Shown: piece by piece, positions 719 through 63,274 of the stretch
Numbering within the stretch: position 1 is the stretch's first letter
How the letters are laid out: the number at the start of each line of letters is the position of its first letter
Origin: an uncultured Candidatus Rokubacteria bacterium
Lineage (GTDB): Bacteria > Methylomirabilota > Methylomirabilia > Rokubacteriales > CSP1-6
Length of the DNA stretch: 64,000 nucleotides
NCBI GenBank assembly: GCA_963762145.1
Contig: CAVXJS010000011.1
Coordinates: 96,001 to 160,000, forward strand
Reading direction: 5' to 3'
Notes under the pieces: generated by a model
Told to the model about the DNA's origin: nothing
The model's input: the letters and a program-made list of their open reading frames with translations, nothing else
Databases searched by the model: none
Program-made: the position numbers and the translations under genes

Positions 719-734
719 TAGTGTGTCCCCCGTC

Positions 735-2034
735 ATGGCGGTGACCGCCCCCTCGCGCTCCCCCTGGGCCGGGCTGTTCCAGCCCGTCGAGCGGGACGAG
801 CGGCTATTCGCGGTGCTCCTGGCCTTCGTGATGGTGGGCGGTCTGGCCACCCTCGGCCTCGTCCCGCTGCGCCCGCGGTACCAGGTGGACGTCTACTCCC
901 TCGTCATCTGGTTCGGCCTCTACAAGGCGGGGATCCTCGCGCTGGTCAGCGCCAATCCGCGCGGAACGCGGCGGATCTTCATCGCCGCCCTCTGCATCGA
1001 TCTCCTCCTCGTCTTCCTCCTGCTGTTCCTCACCGGGGGCGGCGACAGCCCGTTCGTCAACCTCTTCTTCCCGCTCGTCGCGGTCAACGCCTACTACTTC
1101 GGCCGCTGGGTCGGCCTGTTCCTCACGATCGTGGCCGGGCTGCTCTACTGGGCCGCCGCCAGCCTGTCGCTGCCCGCTGCGACGTGGACCGCGGTGCTGA
1201 TCCTGATGGCCCTGGTCGGGCTCCCGGCCTTCGCGCTCGGTCACGTGGCCGACCGCGAGCGCCGCGCGCGCTCGGAGGTGGAGCGCCTGAACACGGAGCT
1301 GACCGGGACGCTCACCCGCCTGCGGGCCGCCCACGAGAGCCTGGTCGAGGCCGAGCGCATGGCCACGGTGGGACGGCTGTCGCTCAAGGTCGCGCACGAG
1401 GTGCGCAACCCCATCGCGGCCATCGGGCTCAACGCGGAGCTGCTGGGCGACATGGTGCAGGGGCGGGTGAGCGAGGACGGTACCGAGGCGACCGCGCTCG
1501 TCACCGCCATCCGCGACCAGGTGGGCGCCCTCGACGCGCTCACCGAGGAGTACCTGGCCTTCGCGCGGTTCCCGCGTCCGCAGTTCGAGGAGGATTCCGT
1601 CAACGACATGGTCAGCGCGGTCGCGGAGTTCGTCCGCCCGCTCGCCGCGCGCCAGGGGATCGCGGTCAAGGTGGCGACCGACCCGACCGTGCCGCCGATG
1701 GAGATCGACCGCACACTCCTTCGCCAGGCGGTGCTGAACCTGGTGAAGAACGGTATGGAGGCGGTCCCCCAGGGAGGGAACCTGACGCTCACCACCGCCT
1801 GCACCGGCGACACGGTGGAGATCGCGGTCTCGGACAGCGGCGCGGGTATCTCGCCCGAGGTCGGCCGGCGGCTGTTCGAGCAGTTCTTCACCACCAAGCC
1901 GCAGGGCACGGGCCTCGGCCTGGCGATCTCGCGCCAGATCGTCGAGGAGCACGGCGGCAAGATCCGCTGGCACAGCGAGCCCGGCGCGGGCGCGACCTTC
2001 ACCATGACCGTGCCGGTGCAGAAGGCGGCCGCCC

Positions 2035-2042
<8 letters not shown>
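735..2042 (+). CDS. Membrane sensor histidine kinase (NtrB-like)
   Basis: About 6 N-terminal TM helices; H-box AHEVRNP; N-box NLVKNG; DSGAG; FFTTKPQGTGLGL. ATG at 735, alternative GTG at 723. Confidence 0.93.
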
Positions 2043-3455
<1,413 letters not shown>

Positions 3456-3459
<4 letters not shown>

Positions 3460-25054: not shown

Positions 25055-28000
25055 GTGAAGATCGGGCGCCTGTTCCCCGACCTCCTGGCCACGCTGGAGC
25101 GCGCCGCGTCCTCCGAGGCGGGCTTCACCCGCACGCTCCGGCTGCTCGTGACCCTCGCCGGCGCCCGAGCAGGCGGCCTGCGCTTTCGCCCCGGGGACGG
25201 CACCCCGCTGGACGTGATCGTGGGCGCCCGGCGTGGCTCCGCCCTCGAGGGCTGGATTCAGGCGCGGCTCGAGCAGTCCGGCCGGGGCGTGAAGGTCGAG
25301 AAGCTGGCCGAGGCGCCGCCGGGGATCCGGTCGCGCGATATCACGGTGCTGACCGCGGGGCTGGGCGATGCCGTCCGTCCCGTCGGCGGGCTCGTGCTGC
25401 TCGGGCCGGGCGGCGCGCGCGGGCTCGCCCGCGAGACGATCCCGCCGAGCTTCCTGCGCGAGTTTGGCCACGCCCTCGAGCAGGTGTGGCGCCTGCGGCG
25501 GCGCACCATCCGGCTCGAAGTCATCAACGAGGTAATGGCCCTCACCGCGACGACGCTGCCGCTCGATCGCGTGTACGGCAAGACGGCGGAGGCGGTCGCC
25601 CGGCTGATCCGCTTCGACGCGCTCGGCGTGACGCTGCTCGATCGCGAGCGGGGGGACTTCCGGTTCCTCGACGTGACCGCGCCCGCCGTGCGGCCCGAGG
25701 TCCTCGACTTCCGGATGCCTACCGCCGGGACCCTGACCGCGTGGGTCGCGAGCCAGCGGGCGCCGCGACGCGTCGACGATGCGACCACCGATCCGTCCGT
25801 CCCGGCGGTGAGCCGCGACCTGCTGTCGCGGCGGGGCTTCCGGTCCGCGATCCTGGCTCCGCTGCTCTCGCAGGGCCAGGTCATCGGCACGCTGAACGTC
25901 GCCCACCGCGCGCCGCACGCCTTCACGGACGCCGACGTGGAGATCTTGATGGAGGTGGCGCGCCCGCTTGCCTCCGCGGTGGAGCATGCGCGCCTGCACG
26001 CGGAGAGCGCGCGCGGTGCCGAGGAGCTGGCCGCGCTGAACCGCACGAGCCAGCTCATCACCGCGCGGCTCGACCTGCCCTCGGTCCTGGAGACGATCAG
26101 CCGCTCGGTCACCTCGCTCATGGGGAGCACCGGCTGCGGCATCGGGCTCCTGAGCCCCGACGACCGGACCCTGATCGAGCAGGCGGCCGCGCACGGCTTC
26201 CGGACCCCGGAGTGGCAGAACCTCTCGGTGCGGGTGGGGGAGGGGCTCATCGGCCTCGCCGTCTCGTCGGGGCAGGCGGTGCGCTCCGACGATCTCCGCG
26301 AAGATCCGCGCTCCGCGCGGCGGGACCTGGACGAGAAGGAAGGCATCCGCTCCCTGCTGAGCGTGCCGCTGCGGGTCGGCGGCCAGATCATCGGCGTCAT
26401 CTCCGCCTTCTCCACCGAGCCACGCGCCTTCGGCGATCGCCAGCAGGCGATGCTGGAGAGCTTCGCGGATCAGGCCGGCATCGCGATCCAGAACGCGCGC
26501 CTGTTCGAGGAGACCCAGCGGCGCGCGCGGGAGACCCAGGCCCTGCTGCGCGCGGGCCACGCGGTCAACCAGAGTCTCGACGTGAGCGAGACGGTGGGAC
26601 TCATCCTGAACCAGGCCCGCGAGGTGCTGGAGGTGCAGTCGTGCGGCCTGTTCACGCTGGACGCCGCGACCGGCGAGCTGACCGCCACCGCCAGCCTCGA
26701 CCTGCCCGCGGAGGACCTGCACGCGATCCGCCTGCGGGTCGGCGAGGGCATCACCGGCGTCGCGGTCAAGGAGCGACGGCCGGTGCAGACCGCGGACCTC
26801 TACCGCGATCCCCGGGTGCGGTATCCGCAGGCGAGCCTGCGCTCGATGCTGGCCGCGCCCCTGATCGTGGGGGAGCAGACGATCGGCGCCCTCACCGTGC
26901 TCCGGACCGACGTGCACCACTTCAGCGCCGAGGAGGAATCGCTGGTCTCCGCGTTCGCAGACCAGGCCGCGATGGCGCTGGAGCACGCGCGCCTGTTCAG
27001 CTCGGTCCGCACGTACTCCGAGCGCCTGGAGGCCATGGTGGAGGCGCGCACCCACGAGCTCGACGAGCAGCGGCGCTTCGTGGAGGTGGTGCTGGAGACG
27101 CTGCCGCTCGGCCTCTTCGTGCTCGACGCGGAGCTGCGCGTGATCAGCACGAACCGGGAAGGCGGCGCGCTGTTGCCGGTGGAGGCCGGTGCCCGCCGTC
27201 CGTTCGCGGAGCTGATGCCGCCCGCCAAGGTCGCCGCGGTACACGCCTTCCTGGAGGGCGCGGTGACCGCGCGCGAGGTGCGCCATGCCGAGGAGGAGCT
27301 GCCCGCGGGCGGGGAGACCCTCACCGTGCGGTTGACCGCGACCCCGCTCCGCGCCCCGCAGGCCACCCACGTGCTGGTCCTGGTGGAGGACATCACGCTG
27401 CAGAAGCGGCTCGAGCGCCAGATGGTGCTGACCGAGCGGCTCACCACCGCGGGGCGGCTGGCCGCCGGGGTGGCCCACGAGCTGAATAATCCGCTGGCCA
27501 CCATCGCGGGCTGCGCGGAGGCCCTGAAGGAGCGGGCGCACGATCCGCACCTGCGCGGCCTGGATGCGTTCAAGGACTTCCCGAGCTATCTCGGGCTGAT
27601 CGAGGAGGAGGCGTACCGCTGCAAGGAGATCACCGGGAGCCTGCTCCACTTCGTGCGCGACCCCGGCAGCCGCCGCGCCCCGACCGATCTGAACATGCTG
27701 GCGGACAAGGTGCTGGAGCTGATCGGACACCAGTCCCGCTACGCCCAGAGCCGGTTCGAGCGGCGCTTCGACGCCGAGATGCCCGACGTGGTGGCCAACG
27801 AGGGCCAGCTCCGCCAGGTGTTCCTCGGGCTCGCCAGCAACGCGCTCGACGCGATGGACGGCCGTGGGACCCTGACCGTGACCACGCGCCGACGCAACGC
27901 CAAGGAGGTCGAGATTGCATTCACGGACGAGGGCCCGGGCATTCCCGAGCACATCCTGCCGCGCGTGTTCGACCCCTTCTTCACCACCAAGCCGCCGGGC

Positions 28001-28125
28001 CAAGGGACCGGGCTCGGCCTGGCGATCGCGCAGGGCTTCGTGGCCGACCACGACGGCCGCTTCGAGGTCGACTCCCGCGTCGGCGCCGGCACCACCTTCC
28101 GCGTCATCCTGCCGGTGACTCGCTC

Positions 28126-28129
<4 letters not shown>
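25055..28129 (+). CDS. Cytoplasmic multi-GAF/PAS histidine kinase
   Basis: Three clear GAF repeats (PL...IG.L, FADQA..A..NARL), a PAS-like segment, AHELNNPL, FFTTKPPGQGTGLGL. No TM helix. Confidence 0.93.
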
Positions 28130-29472
<1,343 letters not shown>

Positions 29473-35013: not shown

Positions 35014-35081
35014 GCGCCGGCTTCGCCGGCGCAATCCCGTTGTGGGGGAGGTTCGGAGGGGGCCGTCTAGGCCCCCTCCGA
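35014..35081. repeat. Double-hairpin intergenic element (REP-like or terminator)
   Basis: GCGCCGGC-TTC-GCCGGCGC (35014-35032) and TCGGAGGGGGCC-GTCTA-GGCCCCCTCCGA (35053-35081). Confidence 0.55.
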
Positions 35082-35103
35082 TGCGCTATACTTCCGCCAG
35101 CCA

Positions 35104-35307
35104 ATGAAGGTCGCGGAGCTGCTGGTCGCCTGCTTCCTGCTGTTCGGGGCGTGCCTCGTGTGGCCCCTGCTCGCCATCGCCAACCACCCCGTCCTGATCC
35201 TGGGGGTGCCGGCCCTGGTGCTCTACCTCTTCGCGGTCTGGGCCGCCATGGTCGGGGTCCTGATCACGCTGGCCCGGCGCCCCCGGGCGCCCGAGGACGA
35301 GTCGTGA
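35104..35307 (+). CDS. Small 2-TM membrane protein, probable partner of the SSS histidine kinase
   Basis: Two hydrophobic helices joined by ILGVP; GTGA overlap with the downstream kinase. Confidence 0.75.
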   Translation: MKVAELLVACFLLFGACLVWPLLAIANHPVLILGVPALVLYLFAVWAAMVGVLITLARRPRAPEDES

Positions 35308-38300
35308 GCGGCCTGTCGCCCACCGCGCTCCTCTCGATCGTCCTCGGCTACCTGGCCTTCCTGTTCCTGGTCGCGTCGGTGGCGGAGGCCTTCGCGCCCC
35401 GCCTTGCCCGGGGCCGGGCCGCCACGCTGATCTACGTGCTCGCCGCGTCGGTCTACTGCACCGCGTGGACCTTCTACGGCAGCGTGGGCCTGGCCGCCAA
35501 CCGGGGCCTCGAGTTCCTGACGATCTACCTGGGGCCCGCCTGCGTGGCGCTCCTGTGGCCGGTGCTGCTGCGCAAGCTCGTGCGGGTCTCCAAGGAGCAG
35601 CGCATCACCTCGGTCTCCGACTTCATCTCGAGTCGCTACGGCAAGTCGGCGTCCCTGGGCACACTCGTGGCGGTCCTCGTGGTGTGCGGGATGATTCCCT
35701 ACATCGCGCTGCAGCTGAAGGCGGTGTCGGCGTCGTTCCGGATGATCCTCCGGGACGAGGCGGTGCTCGAGGTCTTCGACCCGACCCTGGTGGTGGCGGT
35801 GACCCTCGCCCTCTTCGGCATCCTGTTCGGGGCGCGCAACCTCGACTTCACCAAGCGGCAGACCGGCCTCATGACCGCGGTGGCGGTGGAGTCGGTGGTG
35901 AAGCTGCTCGCGTTCCTCCTGGTCGGGGTCTACGTGACGTGGGGGCTCTTCGGGGGGTTCGCCGATCTCTTCGGCCAGGTGGCGCGGAATCCGGAGCTGT
36001 CGCGTCTCCTCACGCTCGACCAGGCGGGCACCGCGTCCTATGCGCGCTGGACCGCGATGCTGGTGATCTCGATGCTGGCCGTGATGTTCCTGCCGCGGCA
36101 GTTCCACGTGCTGGTCGTGCAGAACCAGCGCGAGCGCGACGTCAACGCGGTCTCCTGGTCCTTCCCGCTCTACCTGTTCCTGATCAACATCTTCGTGCTG
36201 CCGATCGCCTTCGCCGGCCTCCTCGTCTTCCCGGAGGCGGGCGCGCAGGCCGACGGCTTCATCCTCCGGCTGCCGCTGTCCTTCGACAGCCAGCTCATCT
36301 CGGTGATCGTGTTCCTGGGCGGCTTCTCGGCGGCCACCGCGATGATCGTGGTGGACTCCCTCGCCCTGTCCAAGATGATCACCAACGACATCATCCTGCC
36401 GATGCTGCTGCGCCGCCGCCGCATGGAGGACATCTACTGGATCACCCTCTTCTACACGCGGCTCGCCATGCTGGCGGTGGTGGCGCTGGGCTTCGCGTGG
36501 GCGCGGATGGAGCACGGCCAGCTGCTGCTGGTGGAGATGGGGCTGCTCTCCTTCATCGCGGTGGCCCAGTGCGCGCCCGCCATCCTCCTCGGGCTCTACT
36601 GGCGGCGCGGCAACCGCCGGGGCGCCTACGCGGGGATCTCGGGCGGCTTCTTCGTGTGGTTCTACACGCTCATCCTCCCGGCCCTGGGCAAGGAGGAGAT
36701 CCTCGGTCAGTCGTTCCTGTCGAACGGGCCGCTGGGGCTGTGGCTGCTGCGGCCCACCGCGTTCCTGGGGCTCGAGGGACTCGATACCATCAGCCACGGC
36801 GTCTTCTGGTCCTTCTTCTTCAACGTGGGGCTCTTCGTGGTGGTGTCGCTGCTCACCGAGCAGGACGCGGACGACCGGGCCCAGGCCGCCGCCTTCGTGG
36901 GGGTCGCGATGGAGGACAAGCCCGCTCCGGGGGCGCCCGCGATCCTATCCGCGCCCGAGATCGAGCGGCTCGTGCATCACTACGTGGGCGACGAGGACGC
37001 GGAGGCCATCGTGCGCGAGCTGTTCGGGGCCAAGGCGCCCGCTGATCTTTCGGTGCCCGAGCTGCTCGAGATGCGCATCCGCTTCGAGCGGCTTCTCGCC
37101 GCCTCGCTGGGCGCGGCGGCCGCGCGCATCATCGTGGAGGACCACTTCACGATCTCCAAGGAAGAGGCCCAGCAGCTCGTCACGTCCTTCCAGCACATGC
37201 AGCAGTCGCTGCGGGTCACCGAGGAGGAGGTCAAGCGCGGGGAGCGGCTACTGGCCTCGGTGGTCGAGAGCGTGGACGACTGCATCTTCACCGCCGACAC
37301 CACCGGGCGGCTCGTCACCATGAACCCGGCCGGCCGCCGGCTGCTCGGCTACGAGCTCTTCGAAGTGAGTCGCCTCCGCTACCCGGATCTGCTCGCCTCG
37401 GACGTGCGAGGCGGCGCCGGCGGCATCGTGGCCGCGCTCGAGGTCGGCCGTGGCTGGAGCGGGCAGGTGACGGGCCGCCGCGGCCGGGGTGACGTCTTCC
37501 CGGCTCACCTGGCCCTGACCGCCCTCTTCGACGACCGCGGCCAGCGCATGGGCACGGTGGGCGTGCTCCACGACCTCACCGAGCAGGTGGAGACGCAGCG
37601 GCGGCTCATCCACCGCGAGAAGCTCGCCTCGCTCGGCGAGATGGCGGCGGGGGTCGCCCACGAGATCCGCAATCCGTTGGGCGGGATCAAGATGGCCACC
37701 AACCTGCTGTCCTCCCCGGAGGTGGACGGCAGCCCCCTGTCGCAGGAGATGGCCCGATCCATCCTGTCCGGCATCGGCGAGATCGAGGGCATCATCAACA
37801 ACCTCCTCGACTGGACGCGGGACGCGCGGCTCGAGCGGAACGAATACGAGCTGGCGAGGATCCTCGACCCGGTGGTGGAGGCGGTGGCGGGCGAGGGGCG
37901 GGCCCGGGGCGTCCAGGTCGGCTTCGGACGGCTCGAGCGCGAGGTGGTCGCGGCGGTGGACGGGCAGAAGCTCCGTCAGGTGTTCACCAACGTCCTGAAG
38001 AACGCGGTGGAGTCGATCGACCCGCACCGCGGCGCCGGACGCGTCAGCGTGGAGCTCTTCGCGGAGGGTGACCGGGCGGTGGTCGAGGTCGTGGACGACG
38101 GCGTCGGGATCGCTCCGGAGGACCGCGACAAGATCTTCCTGCCCTTCTTCACCACCAAGCCCTCCGGCACGGGCCTCGGCATGTCCATCGTCAAGAAGAT
38201 CGTGGACCTCCACGCGGGGGACATCGCGATCGAGAGCGCGCCGGGCCGCGGCACGCGGGTTCGCATCTCATTCCCGGCGGTGGGCGCGGCCCAGCCGGTG

Positions 38301-38318
38301 GCTGGAGGCAATCCATGA
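35304..38318 (+). CDS. Sodium:solute symporter-STAC-PAS histidine kinase (CrbS/CbrA family)
   Basis: VYCTAWTFYGSVG, SDFISSRYGKS, PYIALQLKA, LPRQFH, FSAATAM; ERLLAASLGAAAAR (STAC-like); PAS; AHEIRNP; FFTTKPSGTGLG. Confidence 0.93.
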   Translation: MSGLSPTALLSIVLGYLAFLFLVASVAEAFAPRLARGRAATLIYVLAASVYCTAWTFYGSVGLAANRGLEFLTIYLGPACVALLWPVLLRKLVRVSKEQRITSVSDFISSRYGKSASLGTLVAVLVVCGMIPYIALQLKAVSASFRMILRDEAVLEVFDPTLVVAVTLALFGILFGARNLDFTKRQTGLMTAVAVESVVKLLAFLLVGVYVTWGLFGGFADLFGQVARNPELSRLLTLDQAGTASYARWTAMLVISMLAVMFLPRQFHVLVVQNQRERDVNAVSWSFPLYLFLINIFVLPIAFAGLLVFPEAGAQADGFILRLPLSFDSQLISVIVFLGGFSAATAMIVVDSLALSKMITNDIILPMLLRRRRMEDIYWITLFYTRLAMLAVVALGFAWARMEHGQLLLVEMGLLSFIAVAQCAPAILLGLYWRRGNRRGAYAGISGGFFVWFYTLILPALGKEEILGQSFLSNGPLGLWLLRPTAFLGLEGLDTISHGVFWSFFFNVGLFVVVSLLTEQDADDRAQAAAFVGVAMEDKPAPGAPAILSAPEIERLVHHYVGDEDAEAIVRELFGAKAPADLSVPELLEMRIRFERLLAASLGAAAARIIVEDHFTISKEEAQQLVTSFQHMQQSLRVTEEEVKRGERLLASVVESVDDCIFTADTTGRLVTMNPAGRRLLGYELFEVSRLRYPDLLASDVRGGAGGIVAALEVGRGWSGQVTGRRGRGDVFPAHLALTALFDDRGQRMGTVGVLHDLTEQVETQRRLIHREKLASLGEMAAGVAHEIRNPLGGIKMATNLLSSPEVDGSPLSQEMARSILSGIGEIEGIINNLLDWTRDARLERNEYELARILDPVVEAVAGEGRARGVQVGFGRLEREVVAAVDGQKLRQVFTNVLKNAVESIDPHRGAGRVSVELFAEGDRAVVEVVDDGVGIAPEDRDKIFLPFFTTKPSGTGLGMSIVKKIVDLHAGDIAIESAPGRGTRVRISFPAVGAAQPVAGGNP

Positions 38319-39700
38319 AGCGACGGCTCCTGCTGGTCGAGGACGACGAGGTCTTTCTCCGCCCGCTGCACCGCACGCTCGAGCTGAAAGGCTACGAGGT
38401 GGTGCCGGTCCACAGCGCGGAGGAGGCACTCGACTCCCTCAAGACCGAGGACGTGGACGTGGTGCTCACCGACCGCCGGCTGCCCGGGATGGACGGCGTC
38501 GAGCTGGTGCGGCAGATCAAGGTGGAGCATCCGGACCTCGCGGTGGTGGTCATGACCGCCTACGGCACCATCGAGTCGGCGGTCGAGGCGATGCGACTCG
38601 GGGCCGAGGACTACCTGGTGAAGCCCTTCGAGGCGGCCGAGCTGCTGCTGGTGATCCGGCGGGCCATCGAGTTCCAGGAGCTGAAGTCGGCGAACCGCCG
38701 GACGATCCGGCGCAATCAGGAGCGCTTCACGTTCGGCAACATCGTGGCGGCCAGCGCGGGCATGCAGGCGGTATTCGACCTGCTGCGCTCGGTGGTGGAT
38801 CTGGACACCACCGTGCTCATCCATGGGGAGACCGGCGTCGGCAAGGAGCTGCTCGCGCGCTCCATCCACTTCTCGGGGGCCCGGCGCGACCGGCCCTTCG
38901 TGGCGGTCAACTGCGCGGCCATTCCCGCCGAGCTGTTCGAGTCCGAGCTGTTCGGCTCCCGGCGAGGCGCCTTCACCGGCGCCACCGAGCACCGGCGCGG
39001 CCACTTCCAGATGGCCCACGGGGGAACCCTGCTCCTCGACGAGATCGGGGAGATGCCGTTGCATCTGCAGAGCAAGCTGCTGCGCGCGCTCGAGGAGAAG
39101 AAGGTGACCTCGGTGGGGGCGGACCGCTCGGTGGAGGTGGACGTGCGCTTCATCGCCACCACCAACAAGGACCTGCAGGTGGAGGTGGAGCACGGGGCCT
39201 TCCGCCGCGACCTGTTCTACCGGCTCTCGGTGATGCCGGTGCGGGTGCCCCCGCTGCGCGAGCGCCCGGAAGACATCCCGCTGCTCGCCCGGCACTTCGT
39301 GGAGCAGGCGAGCCGCCGCATCAAGAAGGCGGTCCGCGACATCGCGCCCGAGAGCCTCGGAGCCCTGATGCGATACCCGTGGCCCGGCAACGTGCGCGAG
39401 CTGGAAAACGTGATCGAGCGGGCGGTCATCGTATCCACCGCCCACGTTCTCGCGGACCTCGAGCGCTTTCTCGCGCCGACCGGCGCTCACGCGCCAGTGG
39501 ATCTGTCGCTGCCCTTCCGGGACGCCAAGGCCCGGGTGGTGGAGGACTTCGAGCGCGCCTACATCGAGGGCCTGCTCAAGAGCCACGGGGGCAAGCTCAC
39601 CGCGGCGGCCAAGCACGCGGACATGGATCCCAAGAATTTCTCCGACAAGATCCAGCGCTACGGCCTGCGCCGCTCCGCGCCGGAGCCGCCTCCCGCCTAG
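38315..39700 (+). CDS. Sigma-54-dependent response regulator (CbrB/NtrC-like)
   Basis: Receiver domain, GETGVGKE, GAFTGA, WPGNVREL. ATGA overlap with the kinase. Confidence 0.95.
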   Translation: MKRRLLLVEDDEVFLRPLHRTLELKGYEVVPVHSAEEALDSLKTEDVDVVLTDRRLPGMDGVELVRQIKVEHPDLAVVVMTAYGTIESAVEAMRLGAEDYLVKPFEAAELLLVIRRAIEFQELKSANRRTIRRNQERFTFGNIVAASAGMQAVFDLLRSVVDLDTTVLIHGETGVGKELLARSIHFSGARRDRPFVAVNCAAIPAELFESELFGSRRGAFTGATEHRRGHFQMAHGGTLLLDEIGEMPLHLQSKLLRALEEKKVTSVGADRSVEVDVRFIATTNKDLQVEVEHGAFRRDLFYRLSVMPVRVPPLRERPEDIPLLARHFVEQASRRIKKAVRDIAPESLGALMRYPWPGNVRELENVIERAVIVSTAHVLADLERFLAPTGAHAPVDLSLPFRDAKARVVEDFERAYIEGLLKSHGGKLTAAAKHADMDPKNFSDKIQRYGLRRSAPEPPPA

Positions 39701-47954: not shown

Positions 47955-48599
47955 GTGCGCACGCCCGTGATCGACGTCGCCCGGCCGGTCATCCGGCTCG
48001 GGGCGCGCATCTATTTCCGCATCCGCTTCGAAGGCGTCCATCACATCCCTCGCTCCGGTCCTCTCCTCATCGTGCCGAACCATGTCACGTTTGCCGACCC
48101 GGTGCTCGCGACCATTCCGGTGCGCCGGCCCGTCCACTACATGGCATGGAACGCCCTGTTCCGCGTGCGTGGCCTCTCGTGGCTCATTCGCCGCCTGCGC
48201 GCCTTTCCGGTGGACATCGACGGGGCCGACGCGGGCGCGACCCGGGCCGCGGTCCGCCTCCTCCGCGCGGGGGAGGCGGTCATGATCTTCCCCGAGGCCG
48301 GCCGGAGCCTCGACGGGCGGGTCCAGCGCTTCCGCCTTGGCGCGTTCCGCCTGGCCTGCTCGCTCGGCGTGCCCGTCATGCCGGTGACCATCATCGGGGC
48401 GCACGAGTGCTGGCCGCCCGGTCGCCGCCTGCCGCGCCCCGGCCGCCTCACCATCGTCTATCATCCGGTGATCGCGCCGCCGGAGAACCTCGACGTGAAG
48501 GGGGCCGCGCGGGACCTCGCCCATCGCGTCCACGCGGTCGTCGCCGCCGCGCTGCCCGCGCACCAGCGGCCAGATGCGCCGAGTGACGCGCCCGCCTGA
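47955..48599 (+). CDS. plsC: Lysophospholipid acyltransferase (PlsC family)
   Basis: NHVTFAD (HX4D), IFPEAGRS. Confidence 0.88.
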
Positions 48600-48642
48600 G
48601 GCGCGAGCATTATACGGGCGTCCAGTGTATTCTCTCCCTTCA

Positions 48643-49134
48643 ATGGCACGTCGCGTCGAGTCCGCCATCCTCGTCCTCCACGGCCCGAATCTCAACCTCC
48701 TCGGCACCCGCGAGCCGGCGGTCTACGGCCGTGTCACGCTCACGGAGGTGAACCGCGCGGTGCAGCGCCACGCGGAGAGTCGGGGCGCGCGAGCGGTCTG
48801 CCGGCAGTCCAACCACGAGGGGGAGCTGGTGGACTGGATCCAGGCGGCGGCGCGCGAAGGCTTCCGCGGCATCGTCTTCAATCCGGGCGCGCTCTCGCAC
48901 TACTCGATCGCCTTACGCGACGCGGTGGCCTCGGTGCGCGTGCCGGTGGTCGAGGTGCATCTCTCGAACATCCATGCCCGCGAGGAGTTCCGACACCACT
49001 CGGTGGTCGCGGCGGCCGCCGTCGGGCAGATCTCCGGTTTCGGGCCATCCAGCTACCTGCTCGGCGTGGACGCCCTCCTGGGCGCCTCGCCTGCGATCGG
49101 CGCCCGGGGGACGGCCCGGCAGCGTCGGCCGTGA
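48643..49134 (+). CDS. aroQ: Type II 3-dehydroquinate dehydratase
   Basis: [36 protein letters not shown]. Confidence 0.97.
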
Positions 49135-49205
49135 ATGCGGGCGCCCTACCTGCCGTCCTACCCCCGATCGCTTAGGGGGCGCGAGGGCCGCGACCGGGTC
49201 CGGCC

Positions 49206-50294
49206 GTGACGCCGCCCGACGGTCCCGCCGGGCTCCCGGAGTCCCCCGGAATCGACGAGCGAGCGCTCATCCAGCGGTGCATCGGGGGAGACGCCGCGGC
49301 GTTCGAGCCGCTGGTCGAGAAATACCGTCAGCGGGTGTGGCGTCTGGCCTACCAGGTGTTGCACGACCGCGAGGAGGCCTGGGACGTGGCTCAGGAGGCA
49401 TTCGTGCGGGCGTTTCATTCGCTGTCGTCGTTCCGTGGCCAGTCGGCGTTCTACACCTGGCTCTTTCGCATCACCGTGAACGTGGCCACCGATCGGCATC
49501 GGCAGCGAGGCGCGCAGGCGCGCGCCTTCGGGCCGGAGCGGGTGACCGAGGAGGAATGGACCCGCAGCATGCCCGATCCGGGACGGGGGCCGGATCAGGA
49601 AGCGACGCGCGCGGAGCAGCGCGAGCGCATCCGTCGGGCGCTCGATGCCTTGCCGCCCAAGGCCCGAACGATTATCATGCTGAGTGACGTGGAGGGCCTT
49701 TCGTACCGCGAGATCGCCGAGGTGCTCAACTGCCCGATCGGAACCGTGATGTCCAGGCTGCATAACGCGCGGAAGCGGCTCAAGGGCCTCCTGGGGCCGA
49801 TGCTCGTCCTGATCCTCTGGCTGGGGCTGACGCTCGGCTGGGTCATGCCAGCCGAGGCCCAGCAGATCATTCGCTTCGGCGTCCGCATCATGGAGGCCTC
49901 GAGCCCGCCCCGCGCGGGCGAGACCCCGGGCGTCCTCCGGGCTCCCGCCACGCCCGAGGCCGAGACCGACGAGCGCATGAAGAGGATCCTGCCCCGGCTC
50001 CGCACCCTCTTCCGTTACACCGACTACACCACGCTCGACCGCCAGCGCGTCGAGGGGCCGCTCGGCACCCAGCAGCGGTTCGCGGTGCCCGGCGAGCGGT
50101 GGCTCGAGGTCACGCCCGACCAGCTCCACGGCGACCACGTGCGGATGCGGGTGCGCCTCCTGCGCGGCGTGCATCCGGAGGTCAACGCGGCGATCCAGGC
50201 CGCGCCCGGCGCCCCCGCGGTGCTCGGCGGCCCGCCGTACGGCAACGGCGTGCTGATCATCATCCTCTGGGCCAATCCCAATCCCGCTCCCTAG
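49206..50294 (+). CDS. ECF sigma factor with C-terminal TM/signal-peptide segment and extracytoplasmic domain
   Basis: Sigma2 DVAQEAF, FRGQSAFYTWL; sigma4 GLSYREIA..L.CPIGTVMSRL. Continues in frame into MLVLILWLGLTLGWVMPAEA-QQ and about 145 more aa. Confidence 0.88.
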   Translation: MTPPDGPAGLPESPGIDERALIQRCIGGDAAAFEPLVEKYRQRVWRLAYQVLHDREEAWDVAQEAFVRAFHSLSSFRGQSAFYTWLFRITVNVATDRHRQRGAQARAFGPERVTEEEWTRSMPDPGRGPDQEATRAEQRERIRRALDALPPKARTIIMLSDVEGLSYREIAEVLNCPIGTVMSRLHNARKRLKGLLGPMLVLILWLGLTLGWVMPAEAQQIIRFGVRIMEASSPPRAGETPGVLRAPATPEAETDERMKRILPRLRTLFRYTDYTTLDRQRVEGPLGTQQRFAVPGERWLEVTPDQLHGDHVRMRVRLLRGVHPEVNAAIQAAPGAPAVLGGPPYGNGVLIIILWANPNPAP

Positions 50295-50300
50295 CCCCGC

Positions 50301-51824
50301 GTGAGCGAGCAGCGCTACCGGCAGGAACGGGCCCGTATCGAGCAGGGCCACGTCAAGTACCGCGAGAAGCTCAGGGACGAGGGCAAGCTCTTCGTCCGCG
50401 ACCGCCTGAAGCTGCTCCTGGATCCCGGGACCGAGTTCCAGGAGGATTTCCTCTTCGCGCGCAACCAGGAGGCGGACACGCCCGCCGACGGCGTGGTCAC
50501 GGGGGTCGGCACGGTCGGCGGCCGCGCGGTGTGCGTGATGGCCAACGACTACACCGTGAAGGCGGGCTCGTGGGGCGAGAAGACCATCCAGAAGATCGTG
50601 CGCATCCAGGAGCGCGCCCAGCGGCTGCAGGTGCCGATGATCTACCTGGTGGACGCGGCGGGCGGGCGCATCTCGGAGCAGATCAAGATCTTCCCCGGGC
50701 GCTTCCACGCCGGCCGCATCTTCTACAACGAGGTCCAGCTCTCCGGGGTGGTGCCGCAGGTGTGCGTGCTCTTCGGCCCGTCGCCGGCCGGCTCCGCCTA
50801 TCTGCCCGCGCTCACCGATTGCGTGATCATGGTGGACGGCAAGGCAAGTCTCTACGTCGGGTCTCCCCGAATGGTCGAGATGGCCATCGGGGAGAAGACG
50901 ACCCTCGAGGACCTGGGCGGAGCGCGGATGCACTGCACGGTGTCGGGATGCGGCGACGTGCTCGCCGCCTCCGACGAGGAGGCGATCGAGATCTGCCGGC
51001 GATACTTGAGCTACCTGCCCGGCTCTTTCCGCGAGCGGCCCGCCCCCGTCGAGCCGGTCGGCCCGAAGCCGGGCCGGTCCATCGAGGAGATCGTGCCCTA
51101 CGACCAGCGCAAGTGGTTCGACATGTACGAGGTGATCGACCGCGTGGTGGACGCGGGGTCCTTCTTCGAGATCAAGCGGCTCTTCGCGCCGGAGATCATC
51201 GTGGGCTTCGCGCGCCTCGGCGGCCGCGCGGTGGGCGTGGTGGCCAATCAGCCCAAGGTCAAGGGCGGCGTGCTGATGGTGGACTCCTCCGACAAGGCGG
51301 CGCGGTTCATCGCGCTCTGCAACGCCTTCAACGTCCCGCTCCTGTACCTGGCCGACGTCCCGGGTTTCATGGTCGGCAGCAAGGTGGAGCGGGCCGGCAT
51401 CATCCGCCACGGGGCCAAGATGGTCTTCGCGACGTCGCAGGCCACCGTGCCCAAGATCTGCGTGGTCGTGCGCAAGTGCTACGGTGCCGGCCTGTACGCG
51501 ATGTGCGGCCCGGCCTTCGAGCCGGACGCGGCGCTCGCGCTGCCGCAGGGGCAGGTGGCCATCATGGGGCCCGAGCCGGCGGTCAATGCGGTGTACTACA
51601 ACAAGATCATGGAGCTGCCGGAGGGCGAGCGGGCCGCCTATGTCCAGCAGAAGCGCGACGAGTACGCGCAGGACGTGGACATCTACAAGCTCGCCTCCGA
51701 GATGCTGGTGGACGGCATCGTCGGCGGCTCCGAGCTGCGCGACGAGCTGATCAAGCGGCTGGCCTACGCAGAATCCAAGCAGCTCGAGTTCCCCCCGCGC
51801 CGCAATCCGGTCCTGCCCGTCTGA
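50301..51824 (+). CDS. Acyl-CoA carboxylase carboxyltransferase (beta) subunit
   Basis: PADGVVTG, NDYTVKAGS, LGGARMH, DVPGFMVG, RKCYGAG. Confidence 0.93.
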   Translation: MSEQRYRQERARIEQGHVKYREKLRDEGKLFVRDRLKLLLDPGTEFQEDFLFARNQEADTPADGVVTGVGTVGGRAVCVMANDYTVKAGSWGEKTIQKIVRIQERAQRLQVPMIYLVDAAGGRISEQIKIFPGRFHAGRIFYNEVQLSGVVPQVCVLFGPSPAGSAYLPALTDCVIMVDGKASLYVGSPRMVEMAIGEKTTLEDLGGARMHCTVSGCGDVLAASDEEAIEICRRYLSYLPGSFRERPAPVEPVGPKPGRSIEEIVPYDQRKWFDMYEVIDRVVDAGSFFEIKRLFAPEIIVGFARLGGRAVGVVANQPKVKGGVLMVDSSDKAARFIALCNAFNVPLLYLADVPGFMVGSKVERAGIIRHGAKMVFATSQATVPKICVVVRKCYGAGLYAMCGPAFEPDAALALPQGQVAIMGPEPAVNAVYYNKIMELPEGERAAYVQQKRDEYAQDVDIYKLASEMLVDGIVGGSELRDELIKRLAYAESKQLEFPPRRNPVLPV

Positions 51825-53418: not shown

Positions 53419-53451
53419 CTGTAGCGAGCCGGGTATGTGGAGGTCATGACC

Positions 53452-53898
53452 ATGCATGCGTTGAACCGATCGAAGTCTCGCGCCGCTGAGGCCGGGTTCA
53501 CCCTGGCCGAGATCCTGGTGGCCTGCGCCATCATCTCGGTGGGACTGGTCGCGGTGGCGACCGGCTTTGGGCTCGGCGTCGATGGGGTGGAGGCCGGGCG
53601 CCAGCAGAGCACCGCGGTGTTCCTCGCCGAGCAGCGCATCGAGCAGGCCAAGGAGCTGGCCATGCGTCAGACGGGTCTGGTGCAGCTCGTCGTCGGCAAC
53701 TTGCCGGCCACCGAGGCGTACGGGACGATCACGGGCGCTCCGCCCAGCTACCGTCGGACCACGACGATCACCGACAATCCGGGCGGCACCGCCGGCAAAC
53801 GCGTCGACGTCGTCGTGTTCTACCGCCCGGTGACCGGGCGCGGCGTGCTCACGACGGAACGGTCGGTGTCGCTGTCCATCTTCCTGGCAAATCGATGA
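53452..53898 (+). CDS. Type IV minor pilin, PilV-like
   Basis: Prepilin cleavage site AG/FTLAE followed by a hydrophobic helix; SD GGAGG. Confidence 0.85.
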   Translation: MHALNRSKSRAAEAGFTLAEILVACAIISVGLVAVATGFGLGVDGVEAGRQQSTAVFLAEQRIEQAKELAMRQTGLVQLVVGNLPATEAYGTITGAPPSYRRTTTITDNPGGTAGKRVDVVVFYRPVTGRGVLTTERSVSLSIFLANR

Positions 53899-53912
53899 GG
53901 CGAGGGGACATC

Positions 53913-54587
53913 ATGAACAATCAGCGAGGCTTCACCCTGGCCGAGATGCTGGTGGTCTGCGCCATCGTGGGTCTCGTGATGGCGAGCCTCCTGGGTCTCA
54001 CGATGCAGGGTCAGCAGGCGTACTGGTTCGGGACGACTCAGGTGGACGGCCAGCAGACGGTGCGCGTGGCCATCGAGCGCATGGCCAAGGAGATCCGCGA
54101 GGCGGGCTACGAGCCGCTGCCCGGCGAGACCGACCCTACCGCGTGCCCGAACGCCACGAACTATCCGCTCTACACCTCCGGCGTTCCTTGCTACAAGTTC
54201 GTGCCGGTCACCGCTGCCAGCGCGACCTCGCTCACGCTCCAGTACAACTGGAACGGCTCGACCTGCGCGGTCCCGTGTTCGCCCATCACGACGGGCGCCC
54301 TGGTCACCGATCCGATGGTGTGTCCGACCGCTGCCTGCCGGGGCGAGCAGATCACGTACGCCCTGACTTCCGGCAACATCACGCGCCAGGAGATCGTGGT
54401 GGACGCGTCCCCGGTCGTCATCGCGAGCGGCATCACCAACCTGACCTTCACCTATCGAGACGAGAACAACAACGTCACGGCGTCGACCGACCTCATCCGG
54501 TCTGTCGAGATCTCGGTGACCGCCCAGACCGCGACCAAGGGCGCCTTCGTGACGATGGTCGATCGTATCCGGCTGCGCAATCGATGA
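53913..54587 (+). CDS. Type IV minor pilin, PilW-like
   Basis: QRG/FTLAE, EIREAGY, C-terminal IRLRN; Cys-rich variable region. Confidence 0.87.
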   Translation: MNNQRGFTLAEMLVVCAIVGLVMASLLGLTMQGQQAYWFGTTQVDGQQTVRVAIERMAKEIREAGYEPLPGETDPTACPNATNYPLYTSGVPCYKFVPVTAASATSLTLQYNWNGSTCAVPCSPITTGALVTDPMVCPTAACRGEQITYALTSGNITRQEIVVDASPVVIASGITNLTFTYRDENNNVTASTDLIRSVEISVTAQTATKGAFVTMVDRIRLRNR

Positions 54588-58393: not shown

Positions 58394-58433
58394 GGGCGGT
58401 TGCGCTCACCGCACCCCTCTGTTACGGTCTGCC

Positions 58434-58613
58434 CGTCCATGGTGTCCGGGCGGCCCGCCGGGTGCGGGCCCCAGGGAAGGCGGTGCGAATCCGCCGCGAC
58501 CCCGTCACTGTAATCGGGTACGAAACCCGCGATCGGCCACTGCTCCGGCCCCAGCCGGATCGGGAAGGCGCGGGGAGTAGGACGATCCGAAAGCCAGGAG
58601 ACCTGCCCGGACG
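58434..58613 (+). promoter_or_regulatory. Cobalamin riboswitch 1 (upstream of cobU)
   Basis: GGTG...AGGGAA-ggcGGTGCGAATCCgcc...CACTGTAA...GCCACTG...GGGAAGGC...AGCCAGGAGACCTGCC. A hairpin at 58627-58646 sequesters the SD. Confidence 0.93.
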
Positions 58614-58648
58614 CTGCCACCCGCGCCGGTCCTCGAGGGAGGACCGAG

Positions 58649-63012: not shown

Positions 63013-63229
63013 ACAGGAGGTGACACGACCTAAACAGCAATAAATACAGCAAACAGATCGCAGATCAAGGGAAGCCGGTCCCGGCCGATGTCGAGGCCGA
63101 AGCCGGCACGGTCCCGCCACTGTAAGTGGGGAGTCTCGCCCGATTCCGTGATGGGAGCCACTGGGCCGCCCGAGAGGGCGCCTGGGAAGGCCGGGCCACG
63201 ACGCCGATCCACGAGTCAGGAGACCTGGC
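63013..63229 (+). promoter_or_regulatory. Cobalamin riboswitch 2 (upstream of btuB), variant
   Basis: AGGT...AAGGGAA-gccGGT...CCCGCCACTGTAA...AGCCACTG...TGGGAAGGC...AGTCAGGAGACCTG. Confidence 0.9.
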
Positions 63230-63274
63230 TGCGATCACGGTTGCCAACCCCTTTCGAGGCAAAAGGAGTGGTCG

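What the first reader, a model, noticed from the sequence alone, without database searches (positions are those of the whole stretch)
49206..50294. ECF sigma factor fused to a signal-peptide-like anchor and extracytoplasmic domain, with no anti-sigma: a possible one-component pro-sigma system
Seen: a complete RpoE-like sigma2/sigma4 (about aa 15-196) runs without a stop into RKRLK (basic), LLGPMLVLILWLGLTLGWV (hydrophobic) and MPAEA/QQ (an AxA signal-peptidase-like site at 49851-49859), then a ~145-aa beta-rich domain. The flanking genes are aroQ and a carboxyltransferase, so no anti-sigma gene is adjacent. Known: most ECFs are held by a separate anti-sigma, and TM-bearing ECF groups are mainly reported from Actinobacteria and Planctomycetes. 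Inference: the sigma is tethered by its own tail and released by sequential cleavage (signal peptidase, then an RseP-like protease). The tail resembles the exported proteins that can follow sigma/anti-sigma pairs, which suggests fusion with loss of the anti-sigma.
Basis: partly seen in the sequence, partly recalled or inferred. Interest (0 to 1): 0.78.

Follow-up and report, generated by a model that had tools for sequence, protein, structure and literature searches.

The report
Sigma factor anchored by a signal peptide
A soil-bacterium gene joins a stress-type transcription factor directly to an export signal and an exported domain, so the factor is probably held at the membrane until it is cut free, without the usual separate inhibitor.

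Summary
ORF 49206..50294 (+, 362 aa) encodes a complete ECF sigma factor (sigma2 aa 36-102, sigma4 aa 139-192). It runs without a stop into RKRLK, one hydrophobic segment (aa 195-215), an AEA/Q site (49851-49859) and a 144-aa beta-rich tail.

It is not an assembly error. The same frame is uninterrupted in 26 of 27 assessable Rokubacteria/Methylomirabilota genome loci, always between aroQ and a carboxyltransferase gene.

The tail belongs to an unnamed family of about 150-aa secreted proteins. In two Hydrogenedentes loci a member is the third gene of a sigma, zinc-finger anti-sigma, tail-protein operon. The fused hydrophobic segment looks like that family's signal peptide, with the basic end of sigma4 serving as its n-region. 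No anti-sigma domain is left.

A conserved ECF-type motif (GTGAAT-N17-CGTC, 49131-49157) lies upstream and suggests autoregulation.

Best reading: a membrane-tethered pro-sigma released by proteolysis, possibly by signal peptidase and then an intramembrane protease. The cleavage steps are inferred, not shown.

ECF sigmas fused to membrane-spanning extensions are already known (IutY, ECF48/52/53), so this is a new variant of a known kind. Assignment to a published ECF group could not be checked.

The parts
49131..49157 (+). Putative ECF-type promoter: GTGAAT (-35, 49131-49136), 17-nt spacer, CGTC (-10, 49154-49157). It overlaps the aroQ stop codon.
   Evidence: Invariant in an otherwise variable intergenic alignment of the window plus 27 relatives. 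Exact at the same place in 26 of loci L001-L028. The only exact copy in the window. Similar T(G/A)AAT-N16-CGTCTA lies upstream of the sigma genes of L030 and L042.
49206..50294 (+). Whole ORF, 362 aa: sigma, anchor and tail as one polypeptide.
   Evidence: Uninterrupted in 26 of 27 assessable related loci.
49311..49511 (+). Sigma-70 region 2 (aa 36-102).
   Evidence: Pfam PF04542, E 2.5e-17.
49620..49781 (+). Sigma-70 region 4 (aa 139-192). Its last helix ends in the basic RKRLK (aa 189-193).
   Evidence: Pfam PF08281, E 8.1e-21. The AF2 model shows one continuous helix over aa 178-212.
49788..49850 (+). Hydrophobic signal-anchor segment (aa 195-215).
   Evidence: Kyte-Doolittle maximum 2.1 at aa 195-213. 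Charge +5 before and 0 after. Sequence varies between relatives (mean pairwise identity 0.57) but the segment stays uncharged: the run is 23 aa in 110 of 125 relatives.
49851..49859 (+). AEA (aa 216-218): signal-peptidase-I-type small-x-A motif, followed by Q219.
   Evidence: Position -3 is A/V/G and -1 is A/G/S in 125 of 125 fused relatives; +1 is Q in 120. The site lies 3 aa before strand beta1 in 122. It is also kept in the diverged fused forms P0155, P0160, P0136, P0145 and P0171.
49860..50291 (+). Extracytoplasmic tail (aa 219-362): strand beta1 (221-232), variable Pro-rich linker (233-254), conserved core (255-358).
   Evidence: 175 representative relatives at E <= 1e-3, many of them about 150-aa proteins with their own signal peptide. 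AF2 pLDDT 90. Core mean pairwise identity 0.78, linker 0.36.
48574..49134 (+). aroQ (type II 3-dehydroquinase), the conserved upstream neighbour.
   Evidence: Pfam DHquinase_II, E 7.5e-58. Upstream in 27 of 28 related loci; the 28th starts inside the sigma gene.
50301..51824 (+). Acyl-CoA carboxyltransferase gene, 6 nt after the stop codon; probably co-transcribed.
   Evidence: Pfam Carboxyl_trans, E 4.2e-154. Downstream in 27 of 28 loci; the 28th ends at a contig end. No terminator-like site lies between the two genes.

Best explanation
This is a single-polypeptide pro-sigma factor of Rokubacteria/Methylomirabilota.

Anatomy (shown). A complete ECF sigma factor is followed directly by one membrane-spanning segment, a conserved small-x-A/Q site and a folded domain. 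There is no linker and no anti-sigma domain. The folded domain belongs to a family of small secreted proteins.

Origin (inferred from comparison). The ancestor was a three-gene module of sigma, zinc-finger transmembrane anti-sigma and secreted partner, as still found in two Hydrogenedentes loci. The sigma gene fused to the partner gene and the anti-sigma gene was lost. The partner's signal peptide became the anchor, and the basic end of sigma region 4 became its n-region.

Mechanism (inferred).
1. The segment inserts with the sigma part in the cytoplasm and the tail outside.
2. The -35-reading helix of region 4 continues straight into the bilayer, so the tethered sigma is probably unable to work with RNA polymerase.
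3. Activation needs proteolytic release. The most economical route is cleavage at AEA/Q by signal peptidase I. This may be gated by the tail domain, as it is in the anti-sigma factors RsiV and RsiP.
4. The remaining membrane stub would then be removed by a site-2 protease or a signal-peptide peptidase.
5. The freed sigma then drives its own promoter (GTGAAT-N17-CGTC) and the genes downstream of it.
For: Domains and anchor.

Conserved fusion: 443 tail-region relatives, and all 120 listed carry sigma region 4. One open frame in 26 of 27 assessable genome loci of different species. Fixed aroQ / sigma-tail / carboxyltransferase order in every locus that has the flank.

Selection pattern: the sigma part (mean pairwise identity 0.86) and the tail core (0.78) are conserved. 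The anchor (0.57) and linker (0.36) drift in sequence while hydrophobicity and the site are kept.

Signal-peptide origin: stand-alone relatives are about 150-aa proteins. 80 of 90 have K/R before an uncharged run (median 18 aa) just ahead of the same beta1 strand.

Ancestral module: L030 and L042 encode a sigma (41-42% identical to the window's), an anti-sigma and a secreted tail-family protein. The anti-sigma has the H-x3-C-x2-C motif and one hydrophobic segment (zf-HC2 E 6e-4 in L030, just under Pfam's cut-off). The start of the tail-family gene overlaps the anti-sigma stop.

Predicted binding of that secreted protein to the periplasmic end of the L030 anti-sigma got only weak support. Score 0.56, best of 3 controls 0.03, runs agreeing in at least 90% of contacts, partner pLDDT at least 68. 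The mark was reached by 116 of 157 solved complexes and 2 of 215 mismatched pairs. At 0.60 or under it was reached by only 18 of the 157 solved complexes and by both mismatches that passed. My own alignments were used, so the counts hold only roughly.

No room for an anti-sigma domain: the AF2 full-length model (pLDDT 87.4) has one helix over aa 178-212, running from sigma4 into the membrane segment.

Autoregulation: the bipartite motif is invariant upstream, and a like motif lies upstream of the Hydrogenedentes sigma genes. ECFs often autoregulate (passage of PMC7826278).

Precedents: signal peptidase is the site-1 protease for RsiV and RsiP (abstracts of PMC6066255 and PMC8844934). RseP removes remnant signal peptides (start of the abstract of 10.1101/2021.02.04.429786 in the search listing). 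Fused sigma/anti-sigma proteins are released by regulated proteolysis (passages of PMC8999054).
Against: - No cleavage, topology or activity was measured; every mechanistic step is inferred.
- The uncharged run (23 aa) is longer than the median signal peptide of the stand-alone relatives (18 aa; 13 of 90 reach 23 or more). The segment could be a stable, uncleaved anchor.
- If signal peptidase cleaved constitutively, as it does ordinary signal peptides, the fusion would sense nothing.
- There is no RsiV-like protective amphipathic helix or DUF4179. Strand beta1 starts 3 aa after the site.
- Among the 48 window ORFs scanned against Pfam, no match was to a site-2 protease or signal peptidase family. 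This says nothing about the rest of the genome.
- The ancestral-module argument rests on two loci of one phylum. The contexts of the other stand-alone relatives could not be fetched.
- In L020, L023 and L025 the GTG of the promoter-like motif is in frame with the ORF with no stop between them, so there it might lie in coding sequence.
- No second copy of the motif marks other target genes in the window. One-mismatch hits number 4, against 3.1 matches (exact plus one-mismatch) expected by chance. The related loci also have only the one copy.
- The 125 relatives counted for the site are close kin (75-95% identical), so they are not independent.
Confidence: 0.5

Rival explanations
1. Constitutive coupling without sensing. 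The segment is an ordinary cleaved signal peptide. Each translation yields one secreted tail protein and one sigma whose signal-peptide stub is cleared by housekeeping proteases. The fusion would only fix a 1:1 ratio and route the sigma through the membrane, and regulation would be transcriptional.
For: The site and its spacing from beta1 match those of the cleavable signal peptides of stand-alone relatives. No protective element follows the site. The conserved own promoter points to transcriptional feedback.
Against: A positive-feedback sigma with no inhibitor would tend to run away. The tight conservation of the direct sigma4-to-anchor junction, and an anchor longer than the family's median signal peptide (23 against 18 aa), suggest that the tether itself matters.
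Confidence: 0.2
2. A stable type II membrane protein released by other proteases. The small-x-A site is not used by signal peptidase. A DegS- or Prc-like site-1 protease trims the tail in response to a periplasmic signal and a site-2 protease then frees the sigma, as for IutY.
For: The long uncharged run. The precedent of IutY, processed by Prc and RseP (passage of PMC8999054). A folded, conserved tail that could be the sensor.
Against: It does not explain why -3/-1 small residues and +1 Q are kept in all 125 relatives, and in diverged forms whose anchor sequence is otherwise different.
Confidence: 0.15
3. The sigma works while tethered, like the membrane-bound transcription factors ToxR and CadC (comparison recalled, from no call). 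It would recruit RNA polymerase to membrane-proximal DNA, with the tail modulating activity allosterically or by oligomerisation.
For: None directly. The protein has no recognisable inhibitory domain.
Against: The sigma4 recognition helix runs into the membrane helix without a linker. This leaves little room for the -35 DNA and the polymerase flap (inference from the known sigma4 geometry, recalled).
Confidence: 0.08
4. Artefact: two genes were joined by an assembly or sequencing error, or the tail is translated on its own from ATG 49800.
For: One related locus (L028) has the sigma and tail parts in different frames, and L015 has a garbled stretch in the tail. ATG 49800 is in frame.
Against: The same open frame occurs in 26 of 27 assessable loci from independent assemblies, and in hundreds of metagenome proteins. 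There is no room for a stop or a gene between the parts. Met199 is not conserved in diverged fused relatives, and a peptide starting there has no basic n-region.
Confidence: 0.03

Closest known systems
IutY of Pseudomonas putida (ECF243), a sigma/anti-sigma hybrid
   Same: One polypeptide with an N-terminal ECF sigma, one membrane span and a periplasmic C-terminal part. The sigma is activated by regulated proteolysis (Prc, RseP) and becomes constitutively active when truncated (passages of PMC8999054; title of PMC5411451 in the listing).
   Different: IutY keeps a FecR-like anti-sigma portion and works with a TonB-dependent receptor. Here nothing lies between sigma4 and the membrane segment, the outside domain is of another family with no Pfam name, and a signal-peptidase-type site follows the span.
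ECF48 / ECF52 / ECF53 of Actinobacteria (for example SCO4117)
   Same: ECF sigmas with long C-terminal extensions that include transmembrane helices, proposed to be released by proteolysis (passages of PMC8999054; abstract start of PMC5826349).
   Different: Those carry a zinc-finger (anti-sigma-like) domain before the span, and proline-rich or carbohydrate-binding parts outside. The window protein has no zinc finger and comes from a different phylum.
RsiV / sigmaV and RsiP / sigmaP of Firmicutes
   Same: A type II membrane regulator whose first cut is made by signal peptidase at a site just outside the span, followed by a site-2 protease (abstracts of PMC6066255 and PMC8844934).
   Different: There the substrate is a separate anti-sigma protein. 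RsiV hides its site behind amphipathic helices until lysozyme binds. Here the sigma itself carries the span, and no such helix is predicted.
Sigma, zinc-finger anti-sigma and secreted tail-family protein operons of Hydrogenedentes (L030, L042)
   Same: A related ECF sigma (41-42% identity), a like upstream motif and a homologous secreted domain.
   Different: Three separate genes with a canonical H-x3-C-x2-C anti-sigma. The tail-family protein has its own N-terminal signal peptide.
Secretin domain (PF00263; PilQ, GspD, InvG)
   Same: Weak signals from three searches point the same way. The A1 profile aligns two collinear pieces with the PilQ secretin domain (E 0.88 and 4.5). The ten best Foldseek matches are all secretins (E 3.7e-3 to 2e-2). 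Secretin is the only Pfam family hit by more than one member (2 of 94, best E 0.06).
   Different: No match is significant: 0 Foldseek hits at E <= 1e-3, query-normalised TM-scores of 0.48 or less, rmsd about 21 A. The tail core is about 105 aa against more than 200 for a secretin domain, and it lacks the N-domains.

Membership tests
ECF (group 4) sigma-70 factors | Regions 2 and 4 present, no regions 1.1 or 3. | tested here: met
   Pfam r2, r4_2 and Sigma70_ECF matches. NCBIfam sigma70-ECF scores 123.6 bits against a cut-off of 42.9.
RpoE / SigW equivalogs (NCBIfam) | Score above the curated equivalog cut-off. | tested here: not met
   TIGR02939 RpoE scores 154.6 against 236.15. PRK09641 SigW scores 142.4 against 209.
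A published ECF group (ECF Hub, classification 2.0) | Match to a group or subgroup HMM. | not testable with these tools
   No ECF Hub models are on hand. 'Rokubacteria' occurs 0 times in the main text of PMC7826278. Its supplement could not be read.
Fused sigma/anti-sigma proteins (IutY, ECF48/52/53) | An anti-sigma domain (zinc-finger or FecR-like) between sigma4 and the membrane span. | tested here: not met
   Pfam sigma4 ends at aa 192 and the hydrophobic segment starts at aa 195. No anti-sigma family matched. One continuous helix over aa 178-212.
Fused sigma/anti-sigma proteins (IutY, ECF48/52/53) | A membrane span after the sigma, with an extracytoplasmic C-terminal part. | tested here: met
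   A single hydrophobic window (Kyte-Doolittle 2.1), with positive charge on the sigma side. The tail is homologous to secreted proteins.
Fused sigma/anti-sigma proteins (IutY, ECF48/52/53) | Activation by regulated proteolysis. | not testable with these tools
   Needs experiment.
Sec-type signal peptide | Basic n-region, hydrophobic h-region, c-region with small residues at -3 and -1. | tested here: met
   RKRLK, an uncharged run of 23 aa, AEA/Q. No dedicated predictor such as SignalP was available.
Sec-type signal peptide | Located at the N-terminus of the precursor. | tested here: not met
   It is preceded by 188 residues of folded sigma factor.
RsiV-type signal-peptidase-gated regulators | DUF4179 or amphipathic helices masking the cleavage site. 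| tested here: not met
   No DUF4179 match. Strand beta1 begins 3 aa after the site.
Secretin (PF00263) | Pfam gathering score, or a significant structural match. | tested here: not met
   The window tail has 0 Pfam families even at E <= 10. 2 of 94 family members hit Secretin, best E 0.06. Foldseek best E is 3.7e-3 with TMq 0.45.
Unnamed family of about 150-aa secreted proteins (alignment A1) | Homology over beta1 and the core, with the conserved A-S, L-F-x-Y, L-P-G, G-G-P and L-I-I motifs. | tested here: met
   phmmer found 175 representatives at E <= 1e-3 and 39 at E <= 1e-10. Alignment A1. An HMM built from A1 hits the window ORF at E 4.8e-49; A1 includes the window tail itself.

The most novel reading that the evidence does not exclude
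A signal peptide acts as the anti-sigma factor. The only thing that keeps this sigma off is an internal export signal inherited from a secreted partner protein, and release runs through the general secretion-processing enzymes (signal peptidase I, then a site-2 protease or signal-peptide peptidase). Sigma activity would then report either the state of the exported, possibly secretin-like tail domain or the working of the export and processing pathway itself. This would be a minimal one-protein envelope sensor that evolved by deleting the anti-sigma gene from a three-gene module.
Probability: 0.25. Interest if true: 0.8.

Novelty: new variant of a known kind. Interest (0 to 1): 0.58.

Why it matters
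ECF sigma factors are one of the main routes by which bacteria sense their envelope, and nearly all described ones need an anti-sigma domain, either separate or fused. This lineage-wide case has a bare membrane tether derived from a signal peptide in its place.

- If the tether alone inhibits, it is the smallest known design for a transmembrane sigma switch, and an attractive orthogonal part for synthetic circuits.
- It links sigma release to the general signal-peptide processing machinery.
- It gives a first functional context, ECF signalling, to an unnamed family of small secreted proteins found in several phyla.
- It shows a concrete evolutionary path from a three-gene module to a one-gene module.
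- The organisms are uncultured soil bacteria, so this is one of the few regulatory mechanisms in that phylum that can be tested directly by expressing a single gene in another host.

Tried and rejected
- Assembly artefact or split gene: rejected. The short proteins P0001, P0009, P0281 and P0282 start inside sigma4 and come from contigs of at most 2.7 kb, so they are fragments and not stand-alone tails.
- Other sigma-only hits of the genome scan (Poribacteria, Syntrophomonadaceae and others). The 18 of them I examined, besides L030 and L042, end shortly after sigma4. None of L029-L079 except L030 and L042 has a tail homologue within the fetched flanks, even at E <= 50. They were pulled in by the EIAEVLNC word.
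- Further targets of the promoter motif: none beyond chance in the window or the loci. My first pattern used a 16-nt spacer and missed the site; the true spacer is 17 nt.
The phyla of P0155 and P0160 are therefore unknown.
- A profile search for names of stand-alone relatives listed only fused Rokubacteria proteins among its best 120.
- The ESM Atlas returned only unnamed clusters, commonest phyla Myxococcota and Verrucomicrobiota.
- Secretin homology: no secretin gene lies in the window or the loci to build a profile from, so no profile-profile test was possible. The question is left inconclusive.
- My first rule for picking cleavage sites in stand-alone relatives misplaced most sites and was replaced by a simpler run-length count.
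- Literature: searches for membrane-bound, membrane-tethered, membrane-anchored or transmembrane sigma factor found no occurrence of those phrases in any of the 15 papers listed of 74; all those listed were found through 'IutY'. 'Rokubacteria' + 'ECF' + 'sigma' gave 2 unrelated papers.
- Closed and so unchecked: the collections metagenome contigs and viral contigs.
Full report
1. The observation

The ORF 49206..50294 (+) starts with GTG and encodes 362 aa. Pfam places Sigma70_r2 at aa 36-102, Sigma70_r4_2 at aa 139-192 and the ECF model at aa 21-193. NCBIfam's general ECF model is passed (123.6 bits against 42.9). The RpoE and SigW equivalogs are not (154.6 against 236.15; 142.4 against 209).

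The basic RKRLK is aa 189-193. The only strongly hydrophobic 19-residue window of the protein starts at aa 195 (mean Kyte-Doolittle 2.1; the next best elsewhere is 1.39). Net charge is +5 in the 15 residues before it and 0 in the 15 after it, which favours sigma-in, tail-out. AEA is aa 216-218, nt 49851-49859.

The remaining 144 aa have no Pfam or NCBIfam match. They fold confidently (pLDDT 90.0, pTM 0.80) as beta1, a disordered linker, one helix and seven more strands. The neighbours are aroQ and a carboxyltransferase gene.

2. The fusion is real and conserved

A search restricted to aa 195-362 found 443 proteins at E <= 1e-3. All 120 listed carry sigma region 4 domains, most are 356-372 aa long, and those with a name are from Rokubacteria/Methylomirabilota.

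The scan of one genome per species returned 79 loci, of which L001-L028 match the tail as well. In 26 of them sigma and tail lie in one uninterrupted frame. L022 is cut by its contig end just after the membrane segment, and L028 has the two parts in different frames. Some of these MAGs carry labels of other phyla, but their gene order is the same. aroQ lies upstream in 27 of 28 and the carboxyltransferase downstream in 27 of 28; the two exceptions are contig ends.

Across 25 sequences the conservation differs by region:

| Region | Mean pairwise identity |
|---|---|
| Sigma part | 0.86 |
| Tail core | 0.78 |
| Membrane segment | 0.57 |
| Linker | 0.36 |

This is the pattern expected of a functional protein with a compositionally constrained anchor. 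More distant fused forms exist (P0126, 428 aa; P0155, 353 aa, from a low-GC organism; P0160, 415 aa). Their source organisms could not be learned.

3. What the tail is

An exhaustive phmmer search with the tail alone found 175 cluster representatives at E <= 1e-3. Most are proteins of about 140-200 aa whose match starts about 30-60 residues in. Their N-termini look like ordinary signal peptides. 80 of 90 have K/R before the longest uncharged run (median 18 aa), which ends a few residues before the same beta1 strand. The family has no Pfam model, and the ESM Atlas returns only unnamed clusters.

Weak signals from three searches point to the secretin domain:
- The family profile aligns two collinear pieces with the PilQ secretin domain (E 0.88 and 4.5).
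- The ten best Foldseek matches are all secretins (E 3.7e-3 to 2e-2, TMq up to 0.48, none at E <= 1e-3).
- Secretin is the only Pfam family hit by more than one member (2 of 94, best E 0.06).

None of these is significant, so I treat the link as a lead only.

4. Where the fusion came from

An HMM of the family was run over all ORFs of all fetched loci. Besides the fused genes it hit two separate ORFs, in the Hydrogenedentes loci L030 and L042 (E 3e-17 and 3e-18). Both lie in the same arrangement:
- an ECF sigma gene, 41-42% identical to the window's;
- a gene for a 150-159-aa protein with the H-x3-C-x2-C zinc-finger anti-sigma motif (zf-HC2 E 6e-4 in L030, 20.3 bits against a cut-off of 22.2; no hit in L042), one hydrophobic segment and about 45 periplasmic residues;
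- overlapping its stop, the gene for a signal-peptide-bearing tail-family protein.

A complex prediction between that secreted protein and the periplasmic end of the anti-sigma gave weak support. Score 0.56, best of 3 controls 0.03, runs agreeing in at least 90% of contacts, partner pLDDT at least 68. The mark was reached by 116 of 157 solved complexes and 2 of 215 mismatched pairs. At 0.60 or under it was reached by only 18 of the 157 solved complexes and by both mismatches that passed. My own alignments were used, so the counts hold only roughly.

In the Rokubacteria protein the small-x-A site sits 3 residues before beta1 in 122 of 125 relatives, much as the signal peptides of the stand-alone proteins end a few residues before it. 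The simplest history is therefore fusion of the sigma gene to the partner gene with loss of the anti-sigma gene. The partner's signal peptide became the anchor, and the basic end of sigma4 (ARKRLK, also present in the Hydrogenedentes sigmas) became its n-region.

5. How it probably works

The full-length model (pLDDT 87.4; pTM 0.45, so domain orientation is not defined) shows one helix from aa 178 to aa 212. The last helix of region 4 runs straight into the membrane segment. There is no room for an anti-sigma domain, and none is detected. A sigma whose -35-binding helix ends in the bilayer is unlikely to sit on RNA polymerase and DNA. This rests on recalled sigma4 geometry.

I therefore favour a tethered, inactive pro-sigma that must be cut free. 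The conserved site suggests signal peptidase I. Position -3 is A 114, V 9, G 2; position -1 is A 122, G 2, S 1; position +1 is Q in 120 of 125, and the site is kept in the diverged forms. These sequences are close kin and so not independent.

There are precedents. Signal peptidase is the site-1 protease for the anti-sigma factors RsiV and RsiP (abstracts), and RseP clears remnant signal peptides (abstract start in the listing).

Against a simple cleaved signal peptide, the uncharged run is 23 aa in 110 of 125 relatives, longer than the family's median of 18. No RsiV-like masking helix follows the site. Whether cleavage is constitutive, gated or absent cannot be decided here.

6. Promoter

In the alignment of upstream regions the only invariant intergenic element is GTGAAT-N17-CGTC (window 49131-49157). 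It overlaps the aroQ stop. It is exact at the same place in 26 of L001-L028. L004 has no upstream sequence and L018 reads GCGAAT. It is unique in the window. One-mismatch hits number 4, against 3.1 matches (exact plus one-mismatch) expected by chance.

The two Hydrogenedentes sigma genes are preceded by TGAAT-N16-CGTCTA and TAAAT-N16-CGTCTA. That this resembles ECF promoters is recalled. That ECFs often autoregulate is stated in PMC7826278 (passage).

One caveat: in L020, L023 and L025 the GTG of the motif is in frame with the ORF without an intervening stop. No terminator-like site separates the sigma gene from the carboxyltransferase gene 6 nt downstream, so the two are probably co-transcribed.

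7. Comparison with what is known

Fused sigma/anti-sigma proteins released by regulated proteolysis are established: IutY, and by prediction ECF48/52/53 (passages of PMC8999054). C-terminal extensions are the second most common ECF regulatory mode and arise by gene fusion (passages of PMC7826278 and PMC7671368).

This protein shares the outline but fails the defining feature of those groups, an anti-sigma domain before the span. It adds a signal-peptide-type anchor and site, a new outside domain and a new phylum.

The main text of PMC7826278 never mentions Rokubacteria. Its supplement, which lists all groups, could not be read, and ECF Hub models are not available here. Prior classification of these proteins therefore cannot be excluded.

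In the held library, phrase searches for membrane-bound, membrane-tethered, membrane-anchored or transmembrane sigma factor returned no occurrence of those phrases in any of the 15 papers listed of 74. 'Rokubacteria' + 'ECF' + 'sigma' returned two unrelated papers.

8. Verdict

This is a new variant of a known kind. The tether is shown. The proteolytic release and its trigger are inferred, with overall confidence of about 0.5.

Noticed in passing
window 58431-58624 and 63045-63246 (+): Two cobalamin riboswitches (92.1 and 78.7 bits). One lies in front of cobU/cobT and B12-type ABC transporter genes, the other in front of a TonB-dependent receptor gene.
   Followed up: partly
window 723-3459, 25055-29472, 35040-39700 (+): Three pairs of a sensor histidine kinase and a sigma-54-dependent response regulator within 40 kb.
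   Followed up: no
window 53437-53898 and 53895-54587 (+): Two genes with prepilin-type N-terminal methylation motifs (pilin or pseudopilin-like), syntenic in many of the related loci. No secretin gene was found among the window ORFs scanned.
   Followed up: partly
L030 5887-7470 and L042 5890-7533: Hydrogenedentes operons of an ECF sigma, a zinc-finger anti-sigma and a secreted tail-family protein, preceded by a T(G/A)AAT-N16-CGTCTA motif.
   Followed up: yes
L028 5809-7085; L015 5439-6557: L028 has the sigma and tail parts in different frames (a frameshift or an assembly error). L015 has a garbled stretch inside the tail but stays open.
   Followed up: partly
protein P0123 (346 aa, metagenome): A TonB-receptor Plug / carboxypeptidase-regulatory N-terminus joined to the tail core without strand beta1. 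It is probably a chimeric contig rather than a second architecture.
   Followed up: no
window 49650-49678 (+): A single sigma-70-like promoter match inside the sigma coding region (TTGCCG-17-TATCAT, 9 of 12). It lies upstream of ATG 49800 and is a consensus match only.
   Followed up: no
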